Origin: Flavobacteriales bacterium
GTDB lineage: Bacteria; Bacteroidota; Bacteroidia; Flavobacteriales_C; GCA-002722245
DNA: 64,000 bases
Assembly: GCA_049430665.1 (NCBI GenBank)
Contig: JBMTCG010000003.1
Location: 28,022 to 92,021, forward strand
Direction: 5' to 3'
The position numbers and the translations under genes are program-made. The notes beneath the pieces are model-generated. The model searched no databases, had not been told where the DNA came from, and worked only from the letters and a program-made list of their open reading frames with translations. Below are positions 27,201 through 53,146 of this stretch, piece after piece; position 1 is the first letter of the stretch, and every line of letters starts with the position of its first letter.

Positions 27201-28628
27201 AGCATTATCCATAACATAACTCGCTGTTGAGATGTCATAGGTGCCCACATGAACGGTGTCGTATGAAAAACATCCACCGGCGGTTCCTTCCATCTTTACC
27301 CAGTATTCACCTTGTTGCTCAACGGAAATACTTTGAGTAGTAGCGCCTGTTGACCATAAGTATGTTTTTGCGCCGGGGGGAGCTGTTATTAATACAGGGT
27401 GACCTTTGCAAGTTGCGGTGTCGCTCAATTTTATTGGTACATCACACTCTCCTTCGATGTAGGCATAGCAAGAGTGTCCGCCTTGTGTACAATCTCCAAC
27501 AGTAAATTCTATGGTTAATGTTTGTCCCATATAAGCTTGCAAAGGAATGAAAGCCGATTTCCAATCAACATAATCTAATGAGCCTCTAGACAACCAAGCT
27601 GTATCGCCATTACCTGCGTAAACATCGTACTTGGCGCATTCTACTGATTGATTGTTTTGGTCGTACAATCGAATTCTAAAGTAAGGTTGATCTACCTGAC
27701 CGTGGTTAGGATTTTGCATCACCACCGCGTAGCTGTAATAGAAATTGTAATTGTTGGGTGTAATGGTAATGTTTCTTTTGATACTTGCTGCTTTCCATTT
27801 ATTACCAAAACCATCGCCAATCATTGCCGAGCAACCTCCTCCTGGTTTAATCATTTGAATAGGAACGTTAGGGTCTAATCCGGGAGTAGAAATAATACTG
27901 TGCTGCACTCCTTGTCTGCCAAAATTGAGATTTAAAACCGGAAAACCAGTACCAGAGGTGGCGGTAGGAGTAATGTTGATGTAACTAAATGCACTTGGAG
28001 GGGGAGTTACGCTAGTGCTTGATATCACATTTCCTTCAAACATTTGCCAACCTGTAAAATCGCACTTTTCAAAATCTATATTTTCGCACTCTAAAGGAGG
28101 AGTAGGTGTTGGGGAAGGCACGGGGGCAGGAGTGAGGAGAGAGTGTTCATTCATGTAGGTAGCCAATTCTTTTTCTGCCTCAATTTCGAATTGCCTTTTG
28201 TCGCTTTCCGTAATACTTCTCTTTTGCAAACATTTATCGCCAAAATCAGAGTAAAGCGCATACATTTTTACCACTAATTTCTCTCTAATAGCAAGATATT
28301 CGTTGTTGTTTCCTTTGAAATGTTTTTGCAGCTTATCCCAATATTCGTGTGACATGAAGTTCTCTCCATAGAATATCTCTAGCTCTTCTGCTACCTTTTC
28401 AGTATCAGCAGAATGCGCGCTATCACTAATGTTCGTTGTACAGGTGAGTTGACCTCTTACATCAAAGGACGCGAAACAAAGATATAGCCAAAAAAGTAGT
28501 TCTAAAAAATTGATTTTCTTGTAGTAAAATGCCCGTAAAACGATTTTGAAAGTAGATTCAAATTCCTTCATGGCCATTAAGATAATGCAAAAATATTTAA
28601 ATGCAAAATTAAGTTCAAGTATCTCCAA
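24207..28628 (-). CDS. large secreted multi-PKD-domain protein with T9SS type B (gliding-motility-associated) C-terminal sorting domain
   Basis: 1473 aa. Pro/Thr linker (PAPVPSPTPTPP), then at least 9 PKD-like ~85-aa repeats (…GCxDS/T…V.PLP…F). C-terminus PNAFTPNGDGLNDKFYVYGYNITEFKLYIFNRWGELIFTS matches the type-B CTD. The track start at 28628 is TTG; ATG at 28577 (MAMKEF...) is the more likely start. Confidence 0.8.
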   Translation of the reverse strand: MEILELNFAFKYFCIILMAMKEFESTFKIVLRAFYYKKINFLELLFWLYLCFASFDVRGQLTCTTNISDSAHSADTEKVAEELEIFYGENFMSHEYWDKLQKHFKGNNNEYLAIREKLVVKMYALYSDFGDKCLQKRSITESDKRQFEIEAEKELATYMNEHSLLTPAPVPSPTPTPPLECENIDFEKCDFTGWQMFEGNVISSTSVTPPPSAFSYINITPTATSGTGFPVLNLNFGRQGVQHSIISTPGLDPNVPIQMIKPGGGCSAMIGDGFGNKWKAASIKRNITITPNNYNFYYSYAVVMQNPNHGQVDQPYFRIRLYDQNNQSVECAKYDVYAGNGDTAWLSRGSLDYVDWKSAFIPLQAYMGQTLTIEFTVGDCTQGGHSCYAYIEGECDVPIKLSDTATCKGHPVLITAPPGAKTYLWSTGATTQSISVEQQGEYWVKMEGTAGGCFSYDTVHVGTYDISTASYVMDNACVGSATKFTDKSYPAGTISQWAWSFQNNGSTNSTVQNPSYTYPSSGTHNAKLTITNIHGCVDDTIQQIFVAPAPVAAFSSNPVCANDSTVFINSSTGTITQYKWDFLNNNQFFSSLQNPKYKYSAVATAKLKVTTQFGCSDSITHPIVINPLPVANFTVPNVCFPEASVFTNTSTISSGSVAQWNWNFGDGNTNNTQNPSHNYSTYGNKTVKLVVASNLGCKDSISKTLSVFEKPTINFSTTSVCDKISSALSNSSTLASAATFASWNWDIMNDGSTDYSTKNATHLFASAGSYRILLKGTSSDGCWDTISKPVTIYPLPHADFSSKNVCKGKASSYTDKSTGTIVTWKWDFDNNNSVESSSQNPTYTFANKGSYSSKLKVVSDKGCADSIVKTAIVHPLPIAAYSANNMCIPHPVSFANSSSVTLGNITYQKWKFTSDIGDTTNNFNPTKAFDTHGTFNVKLLVRSDSGCVDSITKSVLYFEKPVVDFTLNDLCANATLNLNNTSTLSSSTFTSWKWDIDNNSSTDYTTQNTVHKYTQHGLKTIQLIGATAQGCLDTMIKTMTVHPLPIADFSPTPNCVNDSASFTESCSIPAGTITNYDWNFNEGNGALVKGPKKKFSTPGNKQVRLIITSDKNCKDTVDKPVMIYPLPQPNFTTAPVCLNSPTVFNNSSVISSQHSPNQIVQHQWKFDDGQSLSSPQAQHLFAAPGNHKVTLITTSAHNCRDSISKTIVVHPLPSPKFTSSAPEGCATWCVDFTNATKVASGSIASYTWNFGDGNSSAAPNPSNCFENVGSTPLSFDISLRATTDKGCVKDTVIQNMITANPITHADFTFTPGEITEDNNKVFFSNASSGENSWLWKYDDDSTDGIENPEHQFTKVGDHFITLVVNNQYNCADSITKKITQIPVWSYHIPNAFTPNGDGLNDKFYVYGYNITEFKLYIFNRWGELIFTSNDISEGWDGIYNGYVVQIDTYIYKAYLTDIFGDKHSEVGIVNCIK

Positions 28629-37916: not shown

Positions 37917-38285
37917 CTAAGCCTCAGTAGCGTCAACAGTATTTCTTCTTTCTTTGATTCTTGATTTTTTACCAGTCAATTCTCTTAAGTAGAACAATCT
38001 TGCTCTTCTTACTTTACCTCTCTTATTCACTTCAATTTTCTCGATGATTGGAGAGTTGATTGGGAAAATTCTTTCTACACCTACACCACCAGAAATTTTT
38101 CTAATTGTAAAGGTTTCTGTGATGCCATGACCTCTTTTTTGTAAAACTACTCCTTGAAAAAACTGGGTTCTAGTTTTAGCACCCTCAGTAATTTTATAAT
38201 AAACTGTGATAGTGTCGCCTGCTGAAAAGTCTTGCCATTTCTTGGTTTCCGACAGTTCTAATGTAATCTGTTTCAATAAGTCCAT
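37917..38285 (-). CDS. rplS: 50S ribosomal protein L19
   Basis: 122 aa. MDLLKQI...[21 protein letters not shown]...GVGVERIFP is canonical bL19. Confidence 0.9.
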
Positions 38286-38512: not shown

Positions 38513-41500
38513 ATGAAGAAAGAGTTTAAGTTATTGTATATTACGCACTTGCTTATGAAATGTTTGCATCATAGGCTATTATTTGTGTTGCTGGTTTTTA
38601 TGCTGGCTGCCAATACTGTGTCTTATGCTCAACCAAACCCCAATGCGCCAAGTGCTTCAGAAATCAAGAAAAAACTAAAGGAAGAAGCAAAGCTCAAAGA
38701 AGAAAAGAGAAAGAAAGAGTTGAAAGAGCAAGAAGAAAGAATTGCTCAAAAGAGAAAGGAAGCCAAAGCCAAAGAGGCTCAAATAAAAAAAGAGACCAAA
38801 ATTGCCAAGCAATCGAGGTTGAAAGAGAGAGAGAGAGCCCAAAAAGATTTAGAAGCTAAGATTAAGCGCGATAGAGAGCTTGAGTTGGCTAAAGCCAAAC
38901 AAGCCGTGCAAGAAGAAAAAAGAAAGGCCGATTTGGCACGAAGAGAATTGGCTCAACAAGAAAAGCAAAGAAAGCAGTTGGATGCCGAACGTAAAATACA
39001 AGAGGCCATCAAGGCTTTGCAAGAAAGAGAGAAAGAAGCCGAAAAGAAAAGAGAGGCCGAAGCTTTGGCTAGAAAAGAGAAGCTTTCTAAAAAGGAAGAG
39101 GCTATTAAGAAGCAAGAAGAGAAAGCTTTGGCCGAAGCCGCAAAGCAAGCAGAAAAGCAAAAAAAATATCAAGAATCGAAGAAAAGTAAGTTAAGCGACC
39201 TTAGTGAAGCGCAAAAAGAGGCGGCAGCTCAAAAAGCCAAACAGGAGGCAGAAAGATTAAAAGCCGAAGAGAAAAAGAAAATTGATGCGTCTTTAGCTGC
39301 CGAGAAAGAAAAGGCTCAAATAAGGGCTGAGGAGGCTGAGGTGCAAAGAAAAATTCAGGAGTTTCAAGAAAAGGAAAGACTGGCGCAAGAACAAATTAGA
39401 AAGTTTAAAGAGGAGGCTAAAGCGCGCAGAGAACAAGAAGAAGCTGAGTTTGCTCAAAAGTTGAAGGAAAAACAAGAAGAATTACAACGTCAGAAAGAGA
39501 TTGCCGAATTTAAAGCCAAAAATAAAGACAAAGAGTCCGAATTGGCTAAACAGTTTGAAGAGCAAAAAAAGGCCGAATCAAGTGCAGAAGAGTTGGCGCG
39601 TTTAAAGAAAGAAGCGGCTGAAAAAGCTGAAGCTGAGCGTTTACGCTTATTAAAAGAAGAACAAGAAAAACGTTTGGCCGAAGCGCGTGCATCGGGCAAT
39701 GAGAAGTTGAAATTAGCTGCTGAAGCTGCAGCTAAAGCCGAAAACGATTTGAAAGCAGAGCAAGATAGGGAAATGGCTGCGATGAAGGCGCGTGAGGAAA
39801 AACGCAAAGAAAAAGAAGCGAAAAAATTAGAGGCACTTCGCTTAAAAGAAGAAAAATTATTGGATAAAGAGGGAGGTGATGACGATGATGCGAAGTTGCT
39901 AAAACAAGAAGCGGCAGAGAAAAAGAAAGCCGAATTCGAGAAAAAGAAAGCCGAATTAAAAGCTGAGAAAGAAAAAGAAGAACAAGAGAAGTTGCGTGCA
40001 AAAGAGGCGGCGAAAGTAGATAAGGCTATGGCTGATGCTAAACGAGCAGAACAAATAAAGAAAGAGACCGAAGAAATGTTAAAGTTGGAGGAAGAAGCCC
40101 GACTATTAAAGAAGCAAGCCGACGAGATAAAAAGAGAAGAAGAAAAGAAAAGACAGGAATTACAAGCCAAAGCGAAAGAAGAGGCAAAGAAAAAGGCAGA
40201 AGAGAATACGAAAGTCGCTACTAAAGAAGAGATAGAGTCGGGTAAAAAGAATGCTGAAAAAGACTATAAAGAACGTGCCGATAAAAAAGCTCAGGAGGAG
40301 AAAGCTTTGAAAGAAAAAGATACTGCCAAAAACGCTCAAGAAGAGGCGCGTCTTAGAAAAGAATACGAAAAGAAAATTTTAGAAGAAAAGAAAAAAGCAG
40401 AAGAATTGGCGAAAGCAAAAGATTTTGAAGCCAAAAAACAAAAGTTAAAAGATGATATTGAGCGTCAGAAACAAGAAAATGAAAAAAGTATTGCTGCCGA
40501 AAAAGACAAAACAGTAAAAGAACAACAGCGCTTAGCTAAGGAGCAAGAAGTATTAGCTCTCAAAGAAAAAGAGTTGCAAAAAAAGAAAGAAATTTTGGCT
40601 CAAAAACAAGCCGAGAAGGATAAAGAATTGGCCAAAATAAAAGAAGAGAAAGCTAAAGAAGAGGAAATAAAGTTAGCGGCCAAAAATGAAAGAGAAGCTT
40701 TACAAGCTAAATCTCGTGAATTAAAAGCGCAAAAAGAAAAGGAAAAAGCAGAGGCTTTGGTGGCCGAAGAAAAAGCCAAAACAGAAAAGCTTAAAGCGGA
40801 ATTGAATAAAACAGCCGAAAAACAAAAAGAAGCCGAGATTAAGAATAAAATTCAAACAGAGGCAAAAGAAAAAGTATCTAAAAAGAATCAAGATGATTTG
40901 GTGAAAAAAGCCAAAGAAGATAAACTTAAAAAATTACAAGAGAAGGAAAATAAAGAAACCGAAGAATTGAAAAACAAATTGAAAGTTGAAGATTCTTTGG
41001 CTACTGCCGGACCAAAAAAGAAACTGACTTTTGAGGAGCAAGTGATTAAAGATTACTATGACGGAAAGAAAATAGGCGGATTCAAAAAAGCAGAAAAAGA
41101 AAGAATTCTATTGGCTTACCGAGAGAAACAAGAAATAGCTTTGCAACAGAAAAAAGATTCGATTGCGAACAGGTTGGCTAAAATTAAAGCCGATCAAGCT
41201 AAAGCGTCGCAAGGAGCAATGAATGCTGCTAAAGAGCAAAAGTACATCAACAATAAATTAAAGGAGTTAGAAGAGCAATTGCTTGTAGAAAAAGAAGCCA
41301 AGAATATAGTAGATAATAATTTGAAAAAAATTGAAGAGTCGGGTTTATCTGGAACCAACATCGCGCTTGAGAAAAATATCCTTAAAAAACAATCAGATGA
41401 AAAACAGAAAGAGGTAGAGCGTATTGAAGAAGAGATAGCAAAATTAAAAGGCAGAAAAACGCAATTGGCGAAACAAGAAAAGGGCAAAAAAGAAAGTACC

Positions 41501-44122
41501 AAAAAGAAAAGCGAAGAGCTGGTTAAACAAAGTGAGGAGAGCTTAAAGAAATTAGAAGAGCAAACGGCGGCAACTAAAATTGAATTGCCATCGGAAAGAA
41601 AGGCTCGTTTGAAAAGAGAAAAAGAAGAAGCGAAATTGAAATTGCTAGAGGCTAAACTTAAAGAGCAAGAATTGGCCAAAGAAAAACAAAAAAGCAAAGA
41701 AGAGAAATTAAAAGAATTGCAAGCCAAAGAAGAGCAATTTGCTAAAGAATTGGCTGAAAAGAAAAAGAAAATTGAAGAAGATAAAGCGGCACTTAAAGCG
41801 CAAAAGGAGCAAGATAAATTGTTGGCCGAAGAAAAAGCCATCAAAGCTAAAGAAGCGAAAAAAATTAAAGCAGTTAAAACAGAAAATAAAGTAGATACTG
41901 TTGATGAAGAGTTGGTGAAAAGAGAGAAAGAATTTGAAGCTAAAAAAGCAAAAGAATTAGAGAAATTAAATGCACAGGATGGTGCCATAGACAAAAAGAT
42001 TTCAAAGGAAGAATTGCGTATTCAAGATTTAAAACAAAAAATTGCTGCCGCCGAACTGAAATTAAAAAATGGTAGCGATGCCAAAGATGAGTATGAGAAA
42101 TCATTGGTGAAATTAGAGTATTCAGCCTCTGTTGATGATGAAATAGAGAAGTCGAAATTGAAAAGAAAAGTGGCCGAAAAATCAATTGAAGTTCAGCAAT
42201 CTGTTGAAGAGTTGAAAAGATTAAGAGCCGAATTGGCTAAAGAAGAAAATGGAGGTTCTTCAACTACTTTGGCGAATGCAAAAAGTTCTGATGCAATAGC
42301 CAAAGAGAATGAAGCGAAAGCTGTTGAGGAAGAAAAAAGAAAACAAAAGGAGAATGATGCTTTAGCAGCAGCCAATGCCAAAGCTAAAAATGAAGCCGAG
42401 AAGAAAAGATTGGCGATGGCCGAAAAGGATAGAATAGAAAAGATAAACAAACAAAAAGAATTGGCTAAAGCTGAGTTGGAAAAAACGAAAAAAGAACTTT
42501 CTGATAAGCAGAAGGCAAGCGCTACCAACTTCGAAAAAGACAAAATGCTTTTAGAAAATGAGCGCAAAGAATTGGCTTTAAAAGAGAAGAGAGAAGAGTT
42601 GTTGAAACAAGAACAAGAGAAATTAATTGCCGAAGAAGAAAGAATAAAAAAAGAGAAAGAAATAGCAATTAGCGAAGCCAAAAAAACAGCCGATTTACAA
42701 GAACTAAAAAAACAACAAGAGCTAGAGCGCATTAGAAAAGAAAATGAAGTGAAAGAGAGAATGATGGCCGAGAAACGCTTTAAAGCCGAGTTGGAGAGAG
42801 AGCGTTCGGAAAGAGAAAGATCATTGCGCGATTCGGTATTGAAATCTCAAAAAAGAGCAGATGCTTTGCATGCGCAAAACAAATCGAAATTCGATTCATT
42901 GGCCATGAAAACATTTGAGCAAAATAAAAAAATGCAAGATGAATACACTTTATTGAAATTGAAAAGAGATCAAGATATTTTAAAGCAACAACAAGAGTTA
43001 CAAAAACAGAAAGAAGAGGCTTTAAAAAATAAAAACAATAAGGTTGCGGTGAGTGAAGAGGCTAGAAAAGCTCAAGAAGCGCGTTTGAAGTATGAGGAGG
43101 AATTAAGAAACAATAAAAAGTTAGAAACGCGCACTGCGCAAATGAAAGAAGAAGCTCGACGCAAAGAAATGATGGAGCAGCAAAGAATGAAAACGATAGA
43201 GCGTGAGCGAATGATGATGGCTAAACAAAAAGCAAGAGAGGATTCTATTAATGCTGCTTTAGCATCTAAAGCCGACCGACAAAAGCCTTTACAAGCACAA
43301 ATTGCAGCTAAAACAAATCAGAAAGTTGTTTTAGAGCAAGAGATTAGCGGACTCAAAGACAAAGAGGTTTTGGTGTTGCAAGGCTATGTGAAAGAAAATG
43401 CGAGCTCTAAACAATTGCAATATGAAGCCAATCAAAAAGTAGGCGTAGAGAAATTAAAAAAATCTACCGCTGCATTATTGTCGGAAAAAAAAGCTTTAGA
43501 ATCGAAATTAAAAGCCAAAGAGAATTATCAAACGCGTTTAGAGAAACAAGAAGAACTTAATAAAATCCGTCAGGAATTAAATGTTTTACAAAAACAATTG
43601 GAAAGCACCAATGTGAAAATTGATACCAATGTGATTAATGCTTCTTTGCAAATTCAATATCAAAATATTATACAATCGAGAGAGAAAATTAAACAAGAAA
43701 TTGATGCTTTAGAAAAAGAAATAAAAGTAAAAGAAGACGAATACAACAACGAACTCACTTTATTGAAACAGGAAGAAGAAAAACAGAAAAAGATTGATGC
43801 ATCTAAAAAGGCCCCTATTCGAAATGTTAAAGATTTAAATGTGCAAATGGAGGCTTACCAAAAGGAGTTGAAAAATGCTGTTAGTCCCGAACAAAAAGCT
43901 AAAATTTACAAAGGCATAAAGGAACTTGAAAAAGCTTATCCAGAAGGAGTGTACGAGGAGTTGATTACCGAATCGAATAGAACAGTGAAAAGAATTGTAG
44001 TGAGCAAAGCAGGTAAAGTGTCTATCTACAAAATGATAGTGTATAATTGGGGTGGAACCTTTTTCTTTAAAGATGATAATACGATTACCAAACAGGTGTT
44101 CGATAGAGAGACAACGTACTAA
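38513..44122 (+). CDS. giant (1869 aa) secreted E/K/A/R/Q-rich predicted single-alpha-helix / coiled-coil rod protein with small C-terminal globular domain
   Basis: Uninterrupted 5.6-kb ORF in an AT-rich genome. N-terminal hydrophobic signal-like segment (LLFVLLVFMLAANTVSYA|QP). About 1700 aa of highly charged low-complexity helix-former sequence (EEKRKKELKEQEERIAQKRKEAKAKE...). Last ~110 aa non-repetitive (…VKRIVVSKAGKVSIYKMIVYNWGGTFFFKDD…). Confidence 0.7.
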   Translation: MKKEFKLLYITHLLMKCLHHRLLFVLLVFMLAANTVSYAQPNPNAPSASEIKKKLKEEAKLKEEKRKKELKEQEERIAQKRKEAKAKEAQIKKETKIAKQSRLKERERAQKDLEAKIKRDRELELAKAKQAVQEEKRKADLARRELAQQEKQRKQLDAERKIQEAIKALQEREKEAEKKREAEALARKEKLSKKEEAIKKQEEKALAEAAKQAEKQKKYQESKKSKLSDLSEAQKEAAAQKAKQEAERLKAEEKKKIDASLAAEKEKAQIRAEEAEVQRKIQEFQEKERLAQEQIRKFKEEAKARREQEEAEFAQKLKEKQEELQRQKEIAEFKAKNKDKESELAKQFEEQKKAESSAEELARLKKEAAEKAEAERLRLLKEEQEKRLAEARASGNEKLKLAAEAAAKAENDLKAEQDREMAAMKAREEKRKEKEAKKLEALRLKEEKLLDKEGGDDDDAKLLKQEAAEKKKAEFEKKKAELKAEKEKEEQEKLRAKEAAKVDKAMADAKRAEQIKKETEEMLKLEEEARLLKKQADEIKREEEKKRQELQAKAKEEAKKKAEENTKVATKEEIESGKKNAEKDYKERADKKAQEEKALKEKDTAKNAQEEARLRKEYEKKILEEKKKAEELAKAKDFEAKKQKLKDDIERQKQENEKSIAAEKDKTVKEQQRLAKEQEVLALKEKELQKKKEILAQKQAEKDKELAKIKEEKAKEEEIKLAAKNEREALQAKSRELKAQKEKEKAEALVAEEKAKTEKLKAELNKTAEKQKEAEIKNKIQTEAKEKVSKKNQDDLVKKAKEDKLKKLQEKENKETEELKNKLKVEDSLATAGPKKKLTFEEQVIKDYYDGKKIGGFKKAEKERILLAYREKQEIALQQKKDSIANRLAKIKADQAKASQGAMNAAKEQKYINNKLKELEEQLLVEKEAKNIVDNNLKKIEESGLSGTNIALEKNILKKQSDEKQKEVERIEEEIAKLKGRKTQLAKQEKGKKESTKKKSEELVKQSEESLKKLEEQTAATKIELPSERKARLKREKEEAKLKLLEAKLKEQELAKEKQKSKEEKLKELQAKEEQFAKELAEKKKKIEEDKAALKAQKEQDKLLAEEKAIKAKEAKKIKAVKTENKVDTVDEELVKREKEFEAKKAKELEKLNAQDGAIDKKISKEELRIQDLKQKIAAAELKLKNGSDAKDEYEKSLVKLEYSASVDDEIEKSKLKRKVAEKSIEVQQSVEELKRLRAELAKEENGGSSTTLANAKSSDAIAKENEAKAVEEEKRKQKENDALAAANAKAKNEAEKKRLAMAEKDRIEKINKQKELAKAELEKTKKELSDKQKASATNFEKDKMLLENERKELALKEKREELLKQEQEKLIAEEERIKKEKEIAISEAKKTADLQELKKQQELERIRKENEVKERMMAEKRFKAELERERSERERSLRDSVLKSQKRADALHAQNKSKFDSLAMKTFEQNKKMQDEYTLLKLKRDQDILKQQQELQKQKEEALKNKNNKVAVSEEARKAQEARLKYEEELRNNKKLETRTAQMKEEARRKEMMEQQRMKTIERERMMMAKQKAREDSINAALASKADRQKPLQAQIAAKTNQKVVLEQEISGLKDKEVLVLQGYVKENASSKQLQYEANQKVGVEKLKKSTAALLSEKKALESKLKAKENYQTRLEKQEELNKIRQELNVLQKQLESTNVKIDTNVINASLQIQYQNIIQSREKIKQEIDALEKEIKVKEDEYNNELTLLKQEEEKQKKIDASKKAPIRNVKDLNVQMEAYQKELKNAVSPEQKAKIYKGIKELEKAYPEGVYEELITESNRTVKRIVVSKAGKVSIYKMIVYNWGGTFFFKDDNTITKQVFDRETTY
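38640..43800 (+). repeat. purine-rich low-complexity coding repeat region (GAA/AAA/GCN-dominated) inside the giant ORF
   Basis: Seen directly: long runs of aaagaag / gaaaaag / gccgaa units. These generate spurious S/F/L/A-rich antisense ORFs in the six-frame track. Confidence 0.5.
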
Positions 44123-45159
44123 TGTTTTCTTTTAATTTTATTGCTACTTGTTCTTTCCAATTTATCTACATGCACTATCTCTTTAATTTGCTCGAATTTA
44201 TGGAGTTCTTGATTCACTTTTTCTAGAGAAATTTCTTCTTCCCCTTCTACAATTAAAATTAGTTTATTAATTAGTTTATCATCGGGAATGGAGCTCACAA
44301 TGAAGTCAGAGGCAATGTGTTTTTTGATTTTTTGTTCTATGCTTTCAGGATTTATTTTAACTCCTCCTGAGTTGATGATGTTGTCGAATCTGCCTCTCCA
44401 TTCAAATGAAAATTTATCGATGAGTGTTACGCAATCGTTGGTGTAAATAGCATTCGCATCTAGCGATGGTGCGAAAATAATGAGGCAATTGTTGTCGTTA
44501 ACACCAAAATGAATTCCTTCGAGTGCTTTGTAGTACTGTTGATGGTGCGGCCAAATTTGTTTAACCGCAATATGACTTACAGTTTCTGTCATTCCAAAAG
44601 TTTGAAATACTTCTGTTTTTACTTCTTTTAATAAAGAATGCAAGCTTTCATTGATTTCCCCTCCGCCTATAATGACTTTTTTTATCCTGTTGAATTTTGA
44701 TTTTTCAGATGAACTCAAAATTTCAAAAACTTGATTGGGTACAAAGGCGGCAAAATCCAAATCGACATCGATATTTTTTAGTGGATTTGATAGGGGTTCG
44801 GTGATAAATAAATTCCAACGATTTACTGCGCTTCGCGCTATCATCATTTTTCCCGCAATAAAATCGGTAGATAGACATAATAAAGCTTTTGTGCCTTCTT
44901 TAATTGCAAAGGTTTGTGCCGTTAAAAGTGCGCTGTTTTTTATTTTGTTTTTTGGAATGGTAAATAGTTTTGCTTTTCCCGTTGTGCCCGAGCTATGCGC
45001 TACTATAGAGTCATTGCTGTTTAGCCACTGTGTTGTGAATTCTGCGACTTTTCTTATCCATTCTTCATTGCTGCCTTTAAGTGTTTCGCAGTAGCTGCAT
45101 ATTTCAGCGTCGCTTTGGCTAGAGAAATCGAGATTAATATATTTTAAATTTGAATTCAC
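44119..45159 (-). CDS. menE: AMP-dependent synthetase/ligase, short form (O-succinylbenzoate-CoA ligase-like)
   Basis: 346 aa. ANL motifs SSGTTGKAK (P-loop), FGMTET, GGVKI, C-terminal KIKRK. The size matches the short Bacteroidetes MenE. Confidence 0.6.
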   Translation of the reverse strand: MNSNLKYINLDFSSQSDAEICSYCETLKGSNEEWIRKVAEFTTQWLNSNDSIVAHSSGTTGKAKLFTIPKNKIKNSALLTAQTFAIKEGTKALLCLSTDFIAGKMMIARSAVNRWNLFITEPLSNPLKNIDVDLDFAAFVPNQVFEILSSSEKSKFNRIKKVIIGGGEINESLHSLLKEVKTEVFQTFGMTETVSHIAVKQIWPHHQQYYKALEGIHFGVNDNNCLIIFAPSLDANAIYTNDCVTLIDKFSFEWRGRFDNIINSGGVKINPESIEQKIKKHIASDFIVSSIPDDKLINKLILIVEGEEEISLEKVNQELHKFEQIKEIVHVDKLERTSSNKIKRKH

Positions 45160-47620: not shown

Positions 47621-48109
47621 ATGAATCAAACTGAAGCTCAAAAAATCATCAAAGATACTGAGTATCTAAACAACAGGATTTTGTCTTTTGATAATCCTAA
47701 AGCAACTTCTGGCGGACGTCAATACTGCAGAGTAATTGATAAAAAGTATTTGTTTTCTAGTACCGATGAGAAAAATAAACAGGGTGCTGTGAAAATTCGT
47801 TTTAAAGATGTGATGACCGGACAAGAGTTTATGGAGCAGTTGACTGCCGTGGCTCGTCAGTTCACGAAAAAGGTTGTAGAGGAGACAGATGATGTGAAAA
47901 CTAATCTATTGGCTGTTTTGGCAGATGAGACCGAGCCTGTTAAATCTTTGGAATGGGTAATGACTCAGTTTAAAGCTAAAGCACCTAAAGTGTTTGCTCA
48001 AAATAAAGATAAAGTAGAAAATTACTTAATGGAGTTGTGGTTGGAAAGTAAAATCACAAGATCTACTTTCAAATCTAAAAACCTTACGGTTTATGCTTTG
48101 AAGAAGTAA
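47621..48109 (+). CDS. hypothetical cytoplasmic protein, unknown function
   Basis: 162-aa ORF, no signal peptide, no recognisable motif. Followed by a strong terminator. Confidence 0.45.
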   Translation: MNQTEAQKIIKDTEYLNNRILSFDNPKATSGGRQYCRVIDKKYLFSSTDEKNKQGAVKIRFKDVMTGQEFMEQLTAVARQFTKKVVEETDDVKTNLLAVLADETEPVKSLEWVMTQFKAKAPKVFAQNKDKVENYLMELWLESKITRSTFKSKNLTVYALKK

Positions 48110-50533: not shown

Positions 50534-53146
50534 TTACTTAACTACAGAGAAAGTTTTGTTAACAGTTTCACCGTTAACAGAAACATTCAATAAGTAAGAA
50601 CCAGCTGCTAAAGAGCTAACGTCGATAGTAGAAAGGTTTTCGCCAGCGCTCAAATTTTGAACGTTGTTAAACATCACTCTACCAGCTAAATCGTAAACTG
50701 TAATTGTGCTAAGTCCAACTTTAACAGCAGAAACATTGATGTTTAAGTTGCTGTTAGATGGGTTAGGGAACAAGTTAACAGAAGTAACTGTTACCGGAGC
50801 AAGCTCATTAACGCTAACACCAGAGATTACATTGAAGTTTACAGATGAATTAGAGCTATTAGAAGAGTTGTCTGTAGCAATAACTTTTAATGTATATGTT
50901 CTAGATGGGTAGTAAGTAGTTGGAGTCCAAGTTGAAGAATAAGTTGAACCCGAATCACCAGGAGTAAGAGTAGCAATTTTATTAACACCATCCCAAATTT
51001 CAAAAGAAACCGAAGCAACAGAACCTTCATCGGTTACAGTAGCTTGTAAATCTATACTTACCGCGTAATCAAAGTTTTGATTGTTGGTAGGTTTTGTAAT
51101 AGTGATTGCTGGAGGTCCGCAAGTTACTACTGTTGCAGTAGCAGGCGTTCTTCCACAAGATGCATTAGCTCCAGTTTCAATTACAAATTTGTATAAACAA
51201 CCGTAGTGAACGTGTGCACCAACATCTGTTTTTTCTGCCGTAGAGAACACAGCACCCCCTGTAGCACCATTAAAGTCAGTGTATGAATTTTTCTCAATAT
51301 CAAAAACACCAGATTGAGCGAAGCCGGCACCTTTCATTGCAGAGAAGCCAATTGCACCAGAAGTTAATTCAACGTAGATGAAATAGTCACCAGGAGTTAA
51401 AGTAATATCAACAGGAACATCTTGAATATCATAGCCATCCCCTGTTGACGTTTTTGTGCCATAAGTGTATTGAGGAGATTGCGCAACAAATGAATTGTTA
51501 GATGAATTCGATACTTTAATTCTAAAAGTTGCACCAGAAGTATGAGATACATACACACGAGCAAATTTTATAGTTAAATCTTTAGTAACTGCAATTCTTT
51601 GCGCTCTATACTCAGCAGTGGTTTGTGTCCAGAATGATGCTCCAGTAACATCTGAGTATGTAGCGATAGGTGACGTATAAGTATTTACACCTGCAGCTTT
51701 TTCTTCAGCATAATACGTAGTATTAGTGTTGAATACTTGAGTCAATGTTGTTCCGGTTCCTACTTTAGTACCAGATACAGCTGCGTCGTACCAGTCATAA
51801 GTTTTTCCGCCCACAGGATTGGTAATCGATAAAGTTAAACTTGTTCCAGCACATCCATTAGCACCACTTGTACTAAAAGGAGCACCGGCAACAATAACGA
51901 TTTCATCTTCTTTTGTACAACCAGAACCTTGAGAGATAACAACTTTATATGTTCCAGCTGCACTAGCTGTGAATGTTGTTCCAGTTTGTCCACCTTGTAA
52001 TGCATTGTCTTTATACCAAGCGAAAGTTCTACCACTTGCTGTAGCAACACCTGGATCTAAAGTTACGGTGTTTGGAGCACAAATGCCTTTGTCCGGACCC
52101 ATATTAGGTTTTGGGATATTACAAAGAGTACTTAAGTAAGTATCTATACCAGCTAGTAAAGAGTATTGGTGGCTTGGCGCTAAATCCTGACCCAAATCCC
52201 AAATTAAGATACCAGCAGCGCCTTTGTTTACAACTAAATCAATTTTTGATTTAAGGGTGTTGATACCATTGTATCCATAAGAACCATTAACATCACTAGT
52301 GTAGATAGTGTTGCTTGGCGTCCAGTCTCTGTACATAGCTTCAGAGCTTCTGTTAGAAGTACCTCTAGCATAGAATGGAACACCTAAGTACATTTTGTTG
52401 TAAGGAACACCTAATGCATTCCAGTCAACCATAGAAGAGTTAGCATCATTATATGAAGCGTGGTTTGTTACATCGTAGTTGTTTCCAGAAGGAAAATCGT
52501 ACGCCATGATGTGCCATTCGTCTACAAGTCCGGCATTGGTATTGAAAAATGAAGGGTCAATGTATTTGGTGTGATTAACAGTGTTTTTTGTTTCACCACC
52601 TACAGCAACAGCCACTTTCAAGTTAGGGTTGCTTGATGCAGCGATTTTCTGATCTAATAGGATCATAAAATCTTTGTGAGCTGTAATTGCCGTTGGGTCT
52701 TTAGGAAACTCCCAGTCGATAGACAAACCATAACAACTAGTGCTAGAATTTGTAGCGAAATTTACCAAGGCAGTAGCTAAATTGTTTCTGAAAGTTGAGT
52801 TTTGACAAACTGAGCTTAAGCGCGCAGCTCTTTGTTCACCTGGATCTGCACCACCTAAAGACAACCAAAGGTTTGTTCCTTTGTTGTTTGCGGCATCACG
52901 AACTACGGTATACTTGTTCATATCGAAACCGTACAACGCATCACCTGGGTTATTGGTAATTAGAGTTCCATCAGTATTAGGGTTGATGAATGAGAAAATG
53001 ATGTCGGTTAACTTGTCGCATTGCGCCGACACATCAGTTGTTGATCGGTACGAAGGGAAGTACCCGATAACTTTTTTGTTCTGAGCAAACAAGCCAAAGG
53101 CTAGCAAGGCAAAACCAAAAGTCAAATAGTAATTGATTTTTTTCAT
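50534..53146 (-). CDS. glycoside hydrolase family 18 chitinase with T9SS type A C-terminal sorting domain
   Basis: 870 aa. Signal peptide. GH18 blocks NLWLSLGGAD, YGLSIDWEFP (catalytic DxE), HIMAYDF. Several Ig/FN3-like beta domains. C-terminal ~80 aa (LFPNPSNSNLNINVS...VNGETVNKTFSVVK) is a Por-secretion type A CTD. Confidence 0.8.
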   Translation of the reverse strand: MKKINYYLTFGFALLAFGLFAQNKKVIGYFPSYRSTTDVSAQCDKLTDIIFSFINPNTDGTLITNNPGDALYGFDMNKYTVVRDAANNKGTNLWLSLGGADPGEQRAARLSSVCQNSTFRNNLATALVNFATNSSTSCYGLSIDWEFPKDPTAITAHKDFMILLDQKIAASSNPNLKVAVAVGGETKNTVNHTKYIDPSFFNTNAGLVDEWHIMAYDFPSGNNYDVTNHASYNDANSSMVDWNALGVPYNKMYLGVPFYARGTSNRSSEAMYRDWTPSNTIYTSDVNGSYGYNGINTLKSKIDLVVNKGAAGILIWDLGQDLAPSHQYSLLAGIDTYLSTLCNIPKPNMGPDKGICAPNTVTLDPGVATASGRTFAWYKDNALQGGQTGTTFTASAAGTYKVVISQGSGCTKEDEIVIVAGAPFSTSGANGCAGTSLTLSITNPVGGKTYDWYDAAVSGTKVGTGTTLTQVFNTNTTYYAEEKAAGVNTYTSPIATYSDVTGASFWTQTTAEYRAQRIAVTKDLTIKFARVYVSHTSGATFRIKVSNSSNNSFVAQSPQYTYGTKTSTGDGYDIQDVPVDITLTPGDYFIYVELTSGAIGFSAMKGAGFAQSGVFDIEKNSYTDFNGATGGAVFSTAEKTDVGAHVHYGCLYKFVIETGANASCGRTPATATVVTCGPPAITITKPTNNQNFDYAVSIDLQATVTDEGSVASVSFEIWDGVNKIATLTPGDSGSTYSSTWTPTTYYPSRTYTLKVIATDNSSNSSNSSVNFNVISGVSVNELAPVTVTSVNLFPNPSNSNLNINVSAVKVGLSTITVYDLAGRVMFNNVQNLSAGENLSTIDVSSLAAGSYLLNVSVNGETVNKTFSVVK

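What the first reader, a model, noticed from the sequence alone, without database searches (positions are those of the whole stretch)
38513..44122. 1869-aa secreted protein that is essentially one giant E/K/A-rich helix (SAH/coiled-coil rod) with a small C-terminal head
This is the largest gene in the window. After a Sec-type hydrophobic N-terminus (…LLFVLLVFMLAANTVSYA / QPNPNAPSAS) the protein runs about 1700 residues with almost no aliphatic or aromatic core residues. It is made mostly of Glu, Lys, Ala, Arg and Gln (…EEKRKKELKEQEERIAQKRKEAKAKEAQIKKETK…). That is the signature of ER/K single-alpha-helix (SAH) segments or very long coiled coils.

The last third becomes more Q/M/N-rich with heptad-like hydrophobic spacing (…LKQQQELQKQKEEALKNK…, …LNVLQKQLESTNVKIDTNV…). 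Only the final ~110 aa look globular (…RTVKRIVVSKAGKVSIYKMIVYNWGGTFFFKDDNTITKQVF…). The ORF stays open for 5.6 kb in an AT-rich genome where the other frames close every few dozen codons, so it is maintained by selection.

A fully helical rod of this length would be about 250 nm, far longer than the cell envelope. Possible roles are an extracellular or periplasm-spanning spacer or tether, a surface fibre, a polyanion- or cation-binding matrix, or a molecular ruler. I do not recognise it as a member of a characterised bacterial family.
Basis: partly seen in the sequence, partly recalled or inferred. Interest (0 to 1): 0.8.

Follow-up and report, generated by a model that had tools for sequence, protein, structure and literature searches.

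The report
Giant exported charged-helix rod protein
This is a real, strongly conserved gene of Flavobacteriales bacteria. It encodes an exported 213-kDa protein that is almost entirely salt-bridged alpha-helix, with a tightly conserved length. The protein ends in a small, previously undescribed domain shared by hundreds of uncharacterised Bacteroidota envelope proteins. What it does is still unknown.

Summary
**Observation: confirmed.** ORF 38513-44122 (+) encodes 1869 aa (K 21%, E 18%, A 13%) and is the largest gene in the window.

- **Start and export.** Orthologues start with TTG at the position of Met15, so the true start is probably 38555. A signal peptide follows, with a conserved A/S-x-A/S|Q cleavage site (the Bacteroidetes "Q-rule").
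- **The rod.**
  - Opposite charges are enriched at i+3/i+4 (z = 5-6). Residues 50-800 have no significant heptad seam, which fits a single alpha-helix (SAH).
  - Residues 800-1300 and about 1590-1800 are amphipathic.
  - AlphaFold2 predicts 87% helix for the rod part (670-1808) of the modelled stretch, with about 15 short hinges.
- **Selection.** dN/dS is 0.06-0.08 for the rod and 0.009 for the tail.
- **Length.** 22 complete orthologues (freshwater and marine Flavobacteriales) fall into length classes of about 1831, 1895, 2215 and 2394 residues. Two proteins 46% identical differ by only 16 gapped residues over 2213.
- **C-terminal domain.** The last 60 aa form a beta-meander plus a short helix. 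The domain matches no Pfam, NCBIfam or PDB entry. It ends 585 clusters of exported Bacteroidota proteins, many with the layout CarboxypepD_reg-TPR-charged linker-domain.
- **Not T9SS.** It is not a canonical type IX secretion (T9SS) tail. Two canonical T9SS cargoes in the same window serve as positive controls.

**Best reading (inferred):** a length-gauged envelope strut or tether docked through the C-terminal domain.

**Classification:** new variant of a known kind.

The parts
38513..38554 (+). Fourteen codons between the first ATG and the probable true start. Probably 5' leader rather than coding sequence.
   Evidence: Orthologues in L004, L007 and L008 start with TTG at the position aligned to Met15, and their upstream frame is not conserved. 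This is an inference.
38555..38629 (+). Signal peptide, Met15-Ala39 (MKCLHHR / LLFVLLVFMLAA / NTVSYA). The predicted SPase I cut lies before Gln40.
   Evidence: The n-h-c organisation is read directly from the sequence. A small-x-small|Q motif is conserved in all 22 complete orthologues. Gln at +1 fits the Bacteroidetes Q-rule (PMC5837995, PMC10653852). Cleavage itself was not tested.
38651..40996 (+). SAH-like segment, residues 47-828. It is rich in E, K, A and R, with conserved Gly hinges at 395, 454-455 (GGDDDD) and 577.
   Evidence: 56% of residues are charged. Opposite charges at i+3/i+4 give z = 5.7/5.2 and like charges z = -5.8/-6.3. Heptad or 3.5-residue periodicity is not significant, z <= 2.3. 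SAH-like windows cover 47-394, 403-453, 456-576, 578-680 and 684-828. dN/dS is 0.079 for residues 40-800.
41018..41152 (+). Conserved non-SAH motif in mid-rod, residues 836-880 (KKKLTFEEQVIKDYYDGKKIGGFKKAEKERILLAYREKQ).
   Evidence: Conservation is locally raised, at 0.75. The motif is recognisable in the 27-32%-identical P0011 (NETFKEKVIREYLEGKPIKGSKKKEKLYIIEEYQ). AF2 predicts a short helix flanked by coils at low confidence. Its function is unknown.
40997..42268 (+). Jointed amphipathic helical region, residues 829-1252, with several short G/S/P hinges.
   Evidence: Conserved hydrophobic positions show 3.5-3.6 residue periodicity, z = 4.0. AF2 predicts helices broken at about 823-839, 850-858, 943-947, 1021-1025, 1121-1130, 1154-1164 and 1246-1272, with pLDDT 88-93 for about 910-990. 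Matches to antiparallel helical hairpins in the PDB are weak, E > 0.09.
42269..43276 (+). Second mainly SAH-like helical stretch, residues 1253-1588.
   Evidence: SAH-like windows cover 1253-1353, 1365-1455 and 1505-1566. AF2 predicts a 236-residue uninterrupted helix at 1273-1508 with pLDDT about 45-73. Over residues 1300-1800, i+4 opposite charges give z = 4.9 and like charges z = -5.9.
43277..43933 (+). Q/N/L-richer helical region in front of the head, residues 1589-1807. It is the best-conserved part of the rod.
   Evidence: Conservation is 0.67-0.79. AF2 gives pLDDT 83-94 over about 1589-1759, which suggests packed helices. The strongest local 3.5-residue periodicity windows lie at 1706-1769.
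43934..44119 (+). C-terminal domain, residues 1808-1869 (YPEGVYEELITESNRTVKRIVVSKAGKVSIYKMIVYNWGGTFFFKDDNTITKQVFDRETTY). It has 4-5 antiparallel beta-strands and a short terminal helix.
37917..38285 (-). rplS (ribosomal protein L19), the only conserved neighbour, transcribed divergently from the rod gene. This is context, not a demonstrated functional part.
   Evidence: Pfam Ribosomal_L19, E = 6.7e-45. It lies immediately upstream on the opposite strand in L002-L008, L011 and 11 metagenome loci. It was not found upstream in the 2394-residue class (L023, L025).

Best explanation
**Shown**
- The gene encodes a protein with a conserved Sec/SPase-I signal peptide.
- The mature chain has about 1830 residues (213 kDa, pI 9.35, net charge +78) and is about 85-90% alpha-helix.
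- Roughly two thirds has the charge patterning of ER/K single alpha-helices: complementary charges at i+3/i+4 and no hydrophobic seam.
- The remaining third is amphipathic helix interrupted by about 15 short conserved hinges.
- The chain ends in a 60-residue beta-meander domain under very strong constraint.
- That domain defines a large, unnamed, apparently Bacteroidota-restricted family of exported proteins. In those proteins a charged helical linker precedes the same C-terminal domain.
- Sequence register and total length of the rod are conserved: few indels and discrete length classes.

**Inferred**
- After export and cleavage, Gln40 probably cyclises to pyroglutamate. The protein then stays in the cell envelope, because it lacks a recognisable T9SS tail.
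- The C-terminal domain docks it to an envelope partner, either a protein or a glycan polymer.
- The salt-bridged helices act as a stiff, segmented strut or tether of defined contour length. The upper bound is about 250 nm. The real span is shorter if the amphipathic parts fold back as hairpins.
- Such a length exceeds the usual periplasmic width of tens of nanometres (general knowledge). The rod would therefore have to lie along the envelope rather than across it. It could act as a spacer, scaffold or ruler, and its net positive charge could contact anionic envelope polymers.
For: - **Signal peptide.** It is present, and the A/S-x-A/S|Q site is conserved in 22 of 22 complete orthologues. The Q-rule literature is PMC5837995 and PMC10653852.
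- **Helicity.** AF2 predicts 87% helix for residues 670-1808.
- **SAH signature.** Charge pairing z-scores are +5 to +6 and -6, with no heptad signal in 50-800. 66% of the mature chain lies in SAH-like windows.
- **Selection.** dN/dS is 0.058-0.079 for the rod and 0.009 for the C-terminal domain.
- **Register and length.** There are 5-9 gap runs among seven orthologues at 45-87% identity. Length classes are 1830-1847, 1891-1900, 2213-2219 and 2394. L027 and L031 are 46% identical with five gap runs totalling 16 residues over 2213.
- **Charge.** Net positive charge (+64 to +107) and pI 9.25-9.5 are conserved in all eight genome-derived orthologues.
- **C-terminal domain family.** The profile hits 585 clusters. 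Nearly all full-length members have signal peptides with Q at +1. The 200 residues before the domain are on average 41% charged.
- **No T9SS tail.** None is detected, although Pfam detects CHU_C (3.5e-15) and Por_Secre_tail (5.5e-13) in two other proteins of the same window.
Against: - No localisation, expression or interaction data exist. All carriers found are uncultured (metagenome-assembled genomes or metagenome contigs).
- The partner of the C-terminal domain is unknown. Gene neighbourhoods give no functional partner; only rplS is conserved.
- Retention in the periplasm is argued only from the absence of known export tails.
- A domain sitting at the extreme C-terminus of many exported proteins is also what a new sorting signal would look like.
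- AF2 confidence for most of the rod is only 45-75. A monomeric helix cannot be told from an oligomeric coiled coil with these tools.
- Amphipathic periodicity in 800-1300 (z = 4.0) and the 3/4/7/11 spacing of conserved hydrophobic positions leave room for coiled-coil or hairpin packing.
- Length classes differ between clades (1830 to 2394), so no single length is required.
Confidence: 0.45

Rival explanations
1. The protein is a cell-surface or extracellular fibre. It crosses the outer membrane, and the conserved C-terminal domain is a new Bacteroidota sorting or attachment signal (a third kind of T9SS tail, or a tail for another route). The rod then forms a long surface filament, adhesin or matrix component.
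For: - The domain sits at or within a few residues of the C-terminus of exported proteins with different N-terminal parts, and every named source is Bacteroidota. Sorting tails show this pattern.
- The organism has T9SS cargo genes.
- A contour length of about 250 nm fits an extracellular fibre better than the periplasm (inference).
Against: - It matches neither the type A nor the type B T9SS tail models at E <= 10, whereas both are readily detected in the same window.
- The predicted fold is a 4-5-strand meander plus helix. The T9SS tail is a 7-strand 3+4 beta-sandwich (PMC11285876).
- No PorP/SprF-like or other transport gene lies next to it in any locus.
- The N-terminal parts of family members are not very diverse. 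They are CarboxypepD_reg plus TPR, or the rod.
Confidence: 0.2
2. The protein is a TolA-like, inner-membrane-anchored transducer or tether. The N-terminal hydrophobic segment is an uncleaved signal anchor. The charged helix spans or explores the periplasm, and the C-terminal head binds an outer-membrane or peptidoglycan-associated partner.
For: - The three-part layout matches TolA: hydrophobic N-terminus, long K/E/A-rich helical domain, small C-terminal alpha/beta head.
- No tol-pal locus has been identified in Bacteroidetes, so the TolA role appears unfilled there (PMC12204202).
Against: - The small-x-small|Q cleavage motif is conserved in 22 of 22 orthologues.
- No TolA, TonB or TolA-C models hit.
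- No tolQ/tolR/exbBD genes lie within about 10 kb in any locus.
- The helical part is 5-15 times longer than the published range for TolA domain II, 110-335 residues (PMC12204202).
Confidence: 0.08
3. The rod is not a single alpha-helix. It is a conventional homo-oligomeric (dimeric or trimeric) coiled-coil fibre, or a fully folded-back antiparallel helical bundle, much shorter than 250 nm.
For: - Conserved hydrophobic columns prefer spacings of 3, 4, 7 and 11.
- 3.5-residue periodicity gives z = 4.0 in 800-1300 and 2.4 in 1300-1800.
- AF2 pLDDT exceeds 88 in about 910-990 and 1589-1759, which implies helix-helix packing.
- Foldseek matches the model weakly to antiparallel hairpins such as HP0958, CT398 and EnvC.
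- Very strict conservation of register and few indels would be expected if two arms must pair.
Against: - Residues 50-800 show no significant heptad or 3.5-residue signal, z <= 2.3, and no autocorrelation of hydrophobics at 7.
- Only 14-17% of residues there are LIVMFYW, about half of what an a/d core needs.
- Charge pairing at i+3/i+4 is the dominant signal.
- The Foldseek hits are not significant, E > 0.09.
Confidence: 0.2
4. The frame is a non-functional or decaying low-complexity ORF, kept open by purine-rich composition.
For: - Biased composition also keeps antisense ORFs of up to 266 codons open.
- One orthologue on a metagenome scaffold is split by a 13-bp duplication.
- There are no expression data.
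Against: - dN/dS is 0.075, with dS of about 1.
- 21 intact orthologues of 1870-2438 codons were found, down to about 25% identity.
- Conservation is position-specific at 50-80%, against about 12% expected from composition (the expectation is my own calculation).
- There are no tandem DNA repeats of note.
Confidence: 0.01

Closest known systems
ER/K-type single alpha-helix (SAH) domains, for example in myosin VI/X and the KER region of CAF-1
   Same: - Very high E/K/R content.
- Complementary charges at i+3/i+4 and depleted like-charge pairs.
- No hydrophobic seam over long stretches.
- Such domains are known to act as stiff spacers, constant-force springs or binding surfaces (PMC5812594, PMC10335832).
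   Different: - Described SAH domains, such as the 128-Å KER helix of CAF-1 (PMC10335832), are far shorter and sit inside cytoplasmic or nuclear eukaryotic proteins.
- Here SAH-like sequence covers about 1200 residues of an exported bacterial protein. It is interleaved with amphipathic, hinge-separated helices.
- Monomeric helicity has not been shown.
TolA (domain II helix plus C-terminal domain III) of the Tol-Pal system
   Same: - Hydrophobic N-terminus.
- Long K/A/E-rich helical middle.
- Small C-terminal alpha/beta head.
- Envelope location.
   Different: - No sequence or fold match to TolA or TonB domains.
- A conserved signal-peptidase site instead of a membrane anchor.
- No TolQR or ExbBD partners nearby.
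- The rod is 5-15 times longer than TolA domain II, which is 110-335 residues (PMC12204202).
Periplasm-spacing coiled coils (Braun's lipoprotein Lpp; Thermotoga Omp-alpha; OmpM-type tethers). Comparison from general knowledge.
   Same: - Exported helical rods.
- Their length is thought to set a distance in the envelope.
- They are anchored at an end.
   Different: - Those rods are short (tens to a few hundred residues), oligomeric, heptad-based coiled coils with lipid, porin or SLH anchors.
- This protein is more than 1800 residues, largely lacks heptads and has a new C-terminal domain.
T9SS cargo proteins of Bacteroidota (type A Por_Secre_tail / type B CHU_C tails)
   Same: - Found in the same phylum.
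- Sec signal peptide with Gln at +1.
- A conserved domain at the extreme C-terminus.
   Different: - The tail is not detected by either model, with positive controls in the same window.
- The predicted fold is a 4-5-strand meander plus helix, not a 7-strand sandwich (PMC11285876).
Unnamed Bacteroidota family: signal peptide - CarboxypepD_reg - TPR repeats and/or charged linker - YPEG...WGG-FYFKN C-terminal domain (for example P0019, P0022, P0052, P0057). Its N-terminal half resembles PorE-type proteins.
   Same: - The same C-terminal domain.
- The same Q-rule signal peptides.
- A charged, Ala-rich helical linker directly before the domain.
- Stand-alone genes in housekeeping contexts.
   Different: - The window protein and its orthologues lack the CarboxypepD_reg and TPR modules. 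Instead the charged helix is expanded to 1800-2400 residues.
- The family itself is uncharacterised; members are annotated as "hypothetical protein".
- PorE ends in OmpA_C rather than this domain (PMC12204202).

Membership tests
ER/K single alpha-helix (SAH) domain | Dominance of E, K and R, with few hydrophobic, Gly or Pro residues | tested here: met
   K+R+E+D make up 56% in residues 50-800. 66% of the mature chain lies in 28-residue windows with >=50% charged residues, <=5 LIVMFYW and no G or P.
ER/K single alpha-helix (SAH) domain | Oppositely charged residues enriched at i+3/i+4, and like charges depleted | tested here: met
   z = +5.7/+5.2 and -5.8/-6.3 in residues 50-800. The same trend holds in 800-1300 and 1300-1800 (shuffles within 50-residue blocks).
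ER/K single alpha-helix (SAH) domain | No heptad hydrophobic seam | tested here: inconclusive
   The feature is met for residues 50-800, z <= 2.3. It is not met for 800-1300, where z = 4.0 at periods 3.5-3.6. It is borderline for 1300-1800, z = 2.4.
ER/K single alpha-helix (SAH) domain | Monomeric, stable helix in solution | not testable with these tools
   This needs CD plus AUC or SEC-MALS on recombinant fragments. AF2 predicts helix but cannot give the oligomeric state.
TolA | TolA/TonB-type C-terminal domain | tested here: not met
TolA | Uncleaved N-terminal membrane anchor working with adjacent TolQ/TolR (or ExbB/ExbD) genes | tested here: not met
   A conserved small-x-small|Q signal-peptidase motif is present. 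No such genes lie in the flanks of the window or of the related loci.
TolA | Long K/A/E-rich helical domain II | tested here: met
   Composition and AF2 helicity fit. The length is 5-15 times the published range (PMC12204202).
T9SS cargo | Type A (Por_Secre_tail/TIGR04183) or type B (CHU_C/TIGR04131) C-terminal domain | tested here: not met
   No hit at E <= 10 in Pfam or NCBIfam for the last 90-267 residues. Both models score 1e-13 to 1e-15 on other proteins of the same window.
T9SS cargo | Seven-stranded 3+4 beta-sandwich fold of the tail | tested here: not met
   The AF2 model has 4-5 strands in a meander plus a terminal helix, pLDDT 83-93. The reference fold is described in PMC11285876.
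Trimeric autotransporter / coiled-coil adhesins | YadA-type beta-barrel anchor and heptad coiled-coil stalk | tested here: not met
   No YadA_anchor or related Pfam hit. The strands of the C-terminal domain are charged or polar. There is no heptad signal in the N-terminal half.
Unnamed Bacteroidota YPEG...WGG-FYFKN C-terminal-domain family | The conserved roughly 60-residue domain at the extreme C-terminus | tested here: met
   A profile built from the window and 3 relatives finds 585 clusters at E <= 1e-3 and 76 at <= 1e-10. In nearly all of the top 150 the match ends at or within a few residues of the C-terminus.
Unnamed Bacteroidota YPEG...WGG-FYFKN C-terminal-domain family | Signal peptide with Gln at +1, and a charged helical linker before the domain | tested here: met
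   Both features are seen in the window protein and in most of the 51 members of at least 400 residues among the top 152 hits.
Unnamed Bacteroidota YPEG...WGG-FYFKN C-terminal-domain family | N-terminal CarboxypepD_reg domain and TPR repeats (the common architecture) | tested here: not met
   The window protein has no Pfam hit at all. P0019, P0022, P0052, P0057 and P0064 carry these domains. The rod type is therefore a distinct subfamily.

The most novel reading that the evidence does not exclude
The rod is a true extended, segmented single-alpha-helix strut whose length is under direct selection. Supporting facts are the discrete length classes of about 1831, 1895, 2215 and 2394 residues, and variation of <=0.3% among proteins only 46% identical. 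It would act as a molecular ruler or longitudinal scaffold of the Flavobacteriales cell envelope. It would be docked by a new Bacteroidota-wide envelope-anchoring domain. This would be the first bacterial envelope structure built on the ER/K SAH principle, and far longer than any SAH studied so far.
Probability: 0.2. Interest if true: 0.8.

Novelty: new variant of a known kind. Interest (0 to 1): 0.6.

Why it matters
- **An unstudied regime for SAHs.** Single alpha-helices are known as short cytoplasmic spacers in eukaryotic proteins. An exported bacterial protein with more than 1000 residues of SAH-type sequence and a tightly conserved length would extend the principle to the bacterial envelope. 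It would also give a natural test system for how length is measured or used there.
- **A new domain family.** The C-terminal domain found here marks several hundred clusters of exported Bacteroidota proteins that have no Pfam or NCBIfam model and no annotation. Defining it, and finding what it binds, would annotate a whole family at once.
- **A gap in Bacteroidota envelope biology.** No Tol-Pal locus has been identified in this phylum (PMC12204202), so how its envelope layers are tethered is only partly understood. Long helical proteins with a dedicated docking domain are plausible missing parts.

Tried and rejected
- **Family scans.** Pfam and NCBIfam scans of the whole protein, the N-terminus, the middle and the C-terminus gave nothing above noise. 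A Pfam scan of 45 family C-termini found no recurrent family. LysM and Choline_bind_1 each hit one of 45 members, so they remain leads only.
- **PDB sequence searches.** Neither the whole protein nor the domain profile gave a match.
- **Fold searches.**
  - The 1200-residue model matched only generic helical hairpins, E > 0.09.
  - The afdb50 library was not available.
- **Structure prediction.** A shallower alignment was used instead.
- **Word-indexed homologue searches.**
  - The last 187 aa gave 3 hits.
  - The domain profile gave 13 short "hypothetical" hits.
  - The mid-rod gave no hits at all.
- **Names.** Cluster look-ups returned none.
- **Gene neighbourhoods.** Neither the orthologues nor three CarboxypepD_reg-TPR paralogues have a conserved functional partner.
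- **Other scans.**
  - Rfam found nothing.
  - There are no meaningful tandem repeats.
  - The sigma-70 promoter and terminator scan was at background.
- **Literature.**
  - Searches for exported or periplasmic SAH or giant charged helices in Flavobacteria found nothing relevant.
  - The giant coiled coils of Dreissena byssus are N-rich and unrelated.
- **Hypotheses considered and rejected.** Trimeric-autotransporter-like anchor, pseudogene, and canonical T9SS cargo (see the membership tests).

Full report
**1. The observation**

It is the largest ORF in the window.

- Composition is K 21.4%, E 18.4%, A 12.6%, L 9.5%, Q 7.1% and R 5.0%. There are only 25 Gly and 9 Pro.
- The coding strand is strongly purine-rich, with AT skew 0.30-0.53 and GC skew 0.23-0.32. 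This also explains antisense ORFs of up to 266 codons inside the gene. The claim that other frames "close every few dozen codons" is therefore not accurate.
- Hydrophobic residues are sparse but not absent: 14-17 per 100 in residues 100-800 and 17-29 per 100 later.

**2. It is a real gene under strong selection**

- The identical protein is encoded on an independent public assembly with the same neighbours (L001).
- A genome scan with the C-terminal motif found seven loci, all Flavobacteriales metagenome-assembled genomes. Each has an intact ORF of 1870-2284 codons ending in the same domain.
- A metagenome scan added 27 loci, freshwater and marine. Fourteen of them carry complete ORFs.
- Against the 87%-identical orthologue L002:

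| Region | dN/dS |
|---|---|
| Rod thirds | 0.079, 0.077, 0.058 |
| Last 62 codons | 0.009 |

- dS is about 1.
- Position-specific identity among seven orthologues is 46-80% in every 50-residue block. Composition alone would give about 12% (my calculation).
- There are no significant DNA tandem repeats.
- The pseudogene or low-complexity-artefact reading is excluded.

**3. Start and export signal**

- Orthologues in L004, L007 and L008 start with TTG exactly where the window has Met15. The likely start is therefore nt 38555.
- The N-terminus then reads MKCLHHR-LLFVLLVFMLAA-NTVSYA|QPN. This is a textbook n-h-c signal peptide.
- All 22 complete orthologues keep a small-x-small|Gln junction: SYA|Q, VFA|Q, TRA|Q, VAA|Q, SYS|Q, SFS|Q, YAQ and HAQ.
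- Gln at +1 is the Bacteroidetes "Q-rule" for signal peptidase I substrates, which are then cyclised to pyroglutamate (PMC5837995, PMC10653852).
- There is no lipobox. Cleavage itself is inferred.

**4. Anatomy of the rod**

- *Charge pattern.* In residues 50-800, oppositely charged pairs are enriched at i+3 and i+4 (z = 5.7 and 5.2). Like-charged pairs are depleted (z = -5.8 and -6.3). Like charges recur at i+6 to i+8. This is the salt-bridge pattern of ER/K single alpha-helices.
- *Hydrophobic periodicity, N-terminal part.* Periodicity at 3.5 or 7 residues is not significant in residues 50-800. This holds in the single sequence (z <= 2.3) and for hydrophobic positions conserved across eight orthologues (z = 1.4).
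- *Hydrophobic periodicity, later parts.* Amphipathic periodicity is significant in residues 800-1300 (z = 4.0) and weak in 1300-1800 (z = 2.4).
- *SAH coverage.* SAH-like windows cover 66% of the mature chain.
- *AlphaFold2.* The model of residues 670-1869 uses a 9-sequence alignment and has mean pLDDT 68.
  - It gives 87% helix before the head, with about 15 short breaks.
  - Several breaks coincide with conserved Gly/Pro/Ser sites.
  - One uninterrupted helix of 236 residues spans 1273-1508.
  - Confidence above about 83 occurs only in about 910-990 and 1589-1759. That suggests helix-helix packing there.
- *Fold search with this model.* Foldseek matches it only weakly to generic antiparallel hairpins, E > 0.09.
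- *Mid-rod motif.* A non-SAH motif at residues 836-880 is conserved even in relatives only 27-32% identical.
- *Contour length.* The 250-nm figure is an upper bound. The rod is best described as a chain of stiff charged helices with hinges, parts of which probably fold back.

**5. Register and length are conserved**

- Seven orthologues at 45-87% identity align with only 5-9 gap runs each.
- The 22 complete mature proteins fall into length classes:

| Length (residues) | Clade | Identity within the class |
|---|---|---|
| 1830-1847 | Chryseobacterium-like clade that includes the window | 68-100% |
| 1891-1900 | Freshwater Flavobacteriales | 60-97% |
| 2213-2219 | Clade that includes the marine (TARA) contigs | 45-98% |
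| 2218 | Separate lineage, about 24% identical to the 2213-2219 clade | 99% (L005/L020) |
| 2394 | L023 and L025 | 94% |

- L027 and L031 are 46% identical, yet differ by five gap runs totalling 16 residues over 2213.
- The 1830 and 1895 classes differ mainly by one 65-residue and one 15-residue indel.
- Net charge (+64 to +107) and pI (9.25-9.5) are also conserved.
- A linker that only had to be long and charged would be expected to tolerate indels. This one does not. That points to selection on length or on helix-helix register.

**6. The C-terminal domain**

- About 43 of the last 61 positions are invariant among relatives that are only 48-60% identical over the last 187 aa.
- A profile search of 1.84 billion cluster representatives found 585 proteins at E <= 1e-3 and 76 at <= 1e-10. 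In nearly all of the top 150 the match lies at or within a few residues of the C-terminus. A few are spurious, fragmentary or carry a longer tail (P0034, P0079, P0010).
- The consensus is ...L-x-E-L-A-x-K-YPEG[VI]TEE-x5-N[RK]T-...-Y-x-K-[VI]-x-[YH]-x-WGG-x-[FY]YFKN-x2-SI[ST]-x3-F-x2-ET.
- Most of the 51 members of at least 400 residues among the top hits have Q-rule signal peptides. Many carry an N-terminal CarboxypepD_reg domain and TPR repeats. The 200 residues before the domain average 41% charged.
- The module "charged helical linker plus this domain" is therefore family-wide. The window protein is a subfamily that drops the N-terminal modules and expands the helix.
- AlphaFold2 with 45 sequences predicts a helix leading into a 4-5-strand antiparallel meander and a short terminal helix, pLDDT 83-93.
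- Public annotations say only "hypothetical protein".
- The aromatic WGG-FYFKNG hairpin reminds me of choline/cell-wall-binding repeats. Only one of 45 members touches that Pfam model, at E = 0.045. This is a lead, not a result.

**7. Context**

- The neighbours are housekeeping Bacteroidota genes:
  - upstream: TamB, a GT1 glycosyltransferase, DUF5683, ParB, ParA, an FMN reductase and rplS;
  - downstream: an AMP-binding enzyme (convergent, with a 4-nt overlap), an MMPL transporter and RelA/SpoT.
- The only conserved neighbour is rplS, divergent and immediately upstream.
  - It is present in all seven genome loci, in L011 and in 11 metagenome loci.
  - It is absent upstream of the 2394-residue class.
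- Downstream genes differ between clades.
- Three CarboxypepD_reg-TPR paralogues are likewise stand-alone genes.
- No operon partner suggests a function.
- The same window encodes two canonical T9SS cargoes:
  - 24207-28628 (-): nine PKD domains plus CHU_C, E = 3.5e-15.
  - 50534-53146 (-): GH18 plus Por_Secre_tail, E = 5.5e-13.
- The organism therefore uses T9SS, and the models work on it. The rod's tail matches neither model, and its fold differs from the 7-strand T9SS sandwich (PMC11285876).

**8. Interpretation**

*Shown:* the protein is exported, basic, largely helical and largely SAH-patterned. It is jointed, constrained in length and register, and carries a new, widely shared C-terminal domain.

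*Inferred, confidence about 0.45:* it stays in the envelope, docked by the C-terminal domain. It serves as a strut, tether or ruler of defined contour length lying along the envelope rather than across it. This follows because even partly folded back it would exceed the usual periplasmic width of tens of nanometres.

Rivals:
- Surface fibre with the C-terminal domain as a new sorting signal: 0.2.
- Conventional oligomeric coiled coil or fully folded-back bundle (a structural rival, not a functional one): 0.2.
- TolA-like inner-membrane-anchored transducer: 0.08. It is weakened by the conserved cleavage site, the absence of TolQR or ExbBD, the absence of a TolA/TonB fold, and a rod 5-15 times the published length of TolA domain II (PMC12204202).
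- Non-functional ORF: 0.01.

**9. Novelty**

- Long helical spacers with a terminal docking domain are a known kind (TolA, Lpp, SAH linkers).
- This one fails the membership tests for TolA, T9SS cargo and autotransporter-type fibres. It is far longer than characterised SAHs, it is exported, and it carries an undescribed domain.
- I rate it a new variant of a known kind.
- Interest is moderate to high, because of the unusual length conservation and the unannotated domain family. The rating is limited by the complete lack of functional data and of a cultured carrier.

Noticed in passing
window 24207-28628 (-) and 50534-53146 (-): Two canonical T9SS cargo genes. One is a 1473-aa protein with nine PKD domains and a CHU_C (type B) tail. 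The other is an 870-aa GH18 chitinase-like protein with Ig/PKD domains and a Por_Secre_tail (type A) tail. They show the organism uses T9SS and served as positive controls.
   Followed up: partly
window 37917-38285 (-) and the equivalent position in L002-L008, L011, L015-L017, L020, L021, L027, L028, L031, L033, L035, L038: rplS (L19) is always the divergent upstream neighbour of the rod gene, across clades that share only about 25% rod identity. The exception is the 2394-residue class (L023, L025). Whether this reflects shared regulation or only frozen gene order is unknown.
   Followed up: partly
L009 1820-2758 (protein P0003): On a 2.9-kb, 2.8x-coverage metagenome contig, an FAD/NAD-binding reductase ORF runs in frame into the last roughly 73 residues of the rod protein at 93% identity. 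This is probably an assembly chimera, but a real deletion or fusion cannot be excluded.
   Followed up: partly
L011 5544-5566: A distant orthologue (about 2226 codons in total) is split into 865-aa and 1367-aa ORFs by a 13-bp direct duplication, AAAAATCTTAGAT. This is either an assembly error or a real frameshift in one population.
   Followed up: partly
L018 302-1414 and L036 3838-4491: In two short metagenome contigs (L018 at 1.9x coverage) the frame carrying the C-terminal domain is closed by an upstream stop after only 370 and 217 codons, although more contig sequence lies upstream. These may be assembly errors or disrupted copies.
   Followed up: no
window 39490-40170, 41194-41994, 42193-42732 (all -): Antisense ORFs of 226, 266 and 179 codons lie inside the gene. 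They are expected by-products of the purine-rich sense strand (GAA/AAG codons read as TTC/CTT), not genes.
   Followed up: no
window 41018-41152 (residues 836-880): A conserved non-charged motif, LTFEEQVIKDYYDGKKIGGFKK...ILLAYREKQ, sits in the middle of the rod. It is recognisable in relatives only about 30% identical. It could be a hinge or a binding site.
   Followed up: partly
window 44119-44122: The stop region of the rod gene overlaps by 4 nt the end of the convergent 346-aa AMP-binding-enzyme gene at 44119-45159 (-). There is no intergenic terminator.
   Followed up: no
window 47621-48109 (+): A 162-aa ORF has no Pfam match but is 94% conserved in L003. It is an uncharacterised small protein.
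   Followed up: no
L005 12208-17784 (+): A 1858-aa bacterial alpha-2-macroglobulin gene lies 2 kb downstream of the rod orthologue in one metagenome-assembled genome. It is not conserved in the other loci.
   Followed up: no
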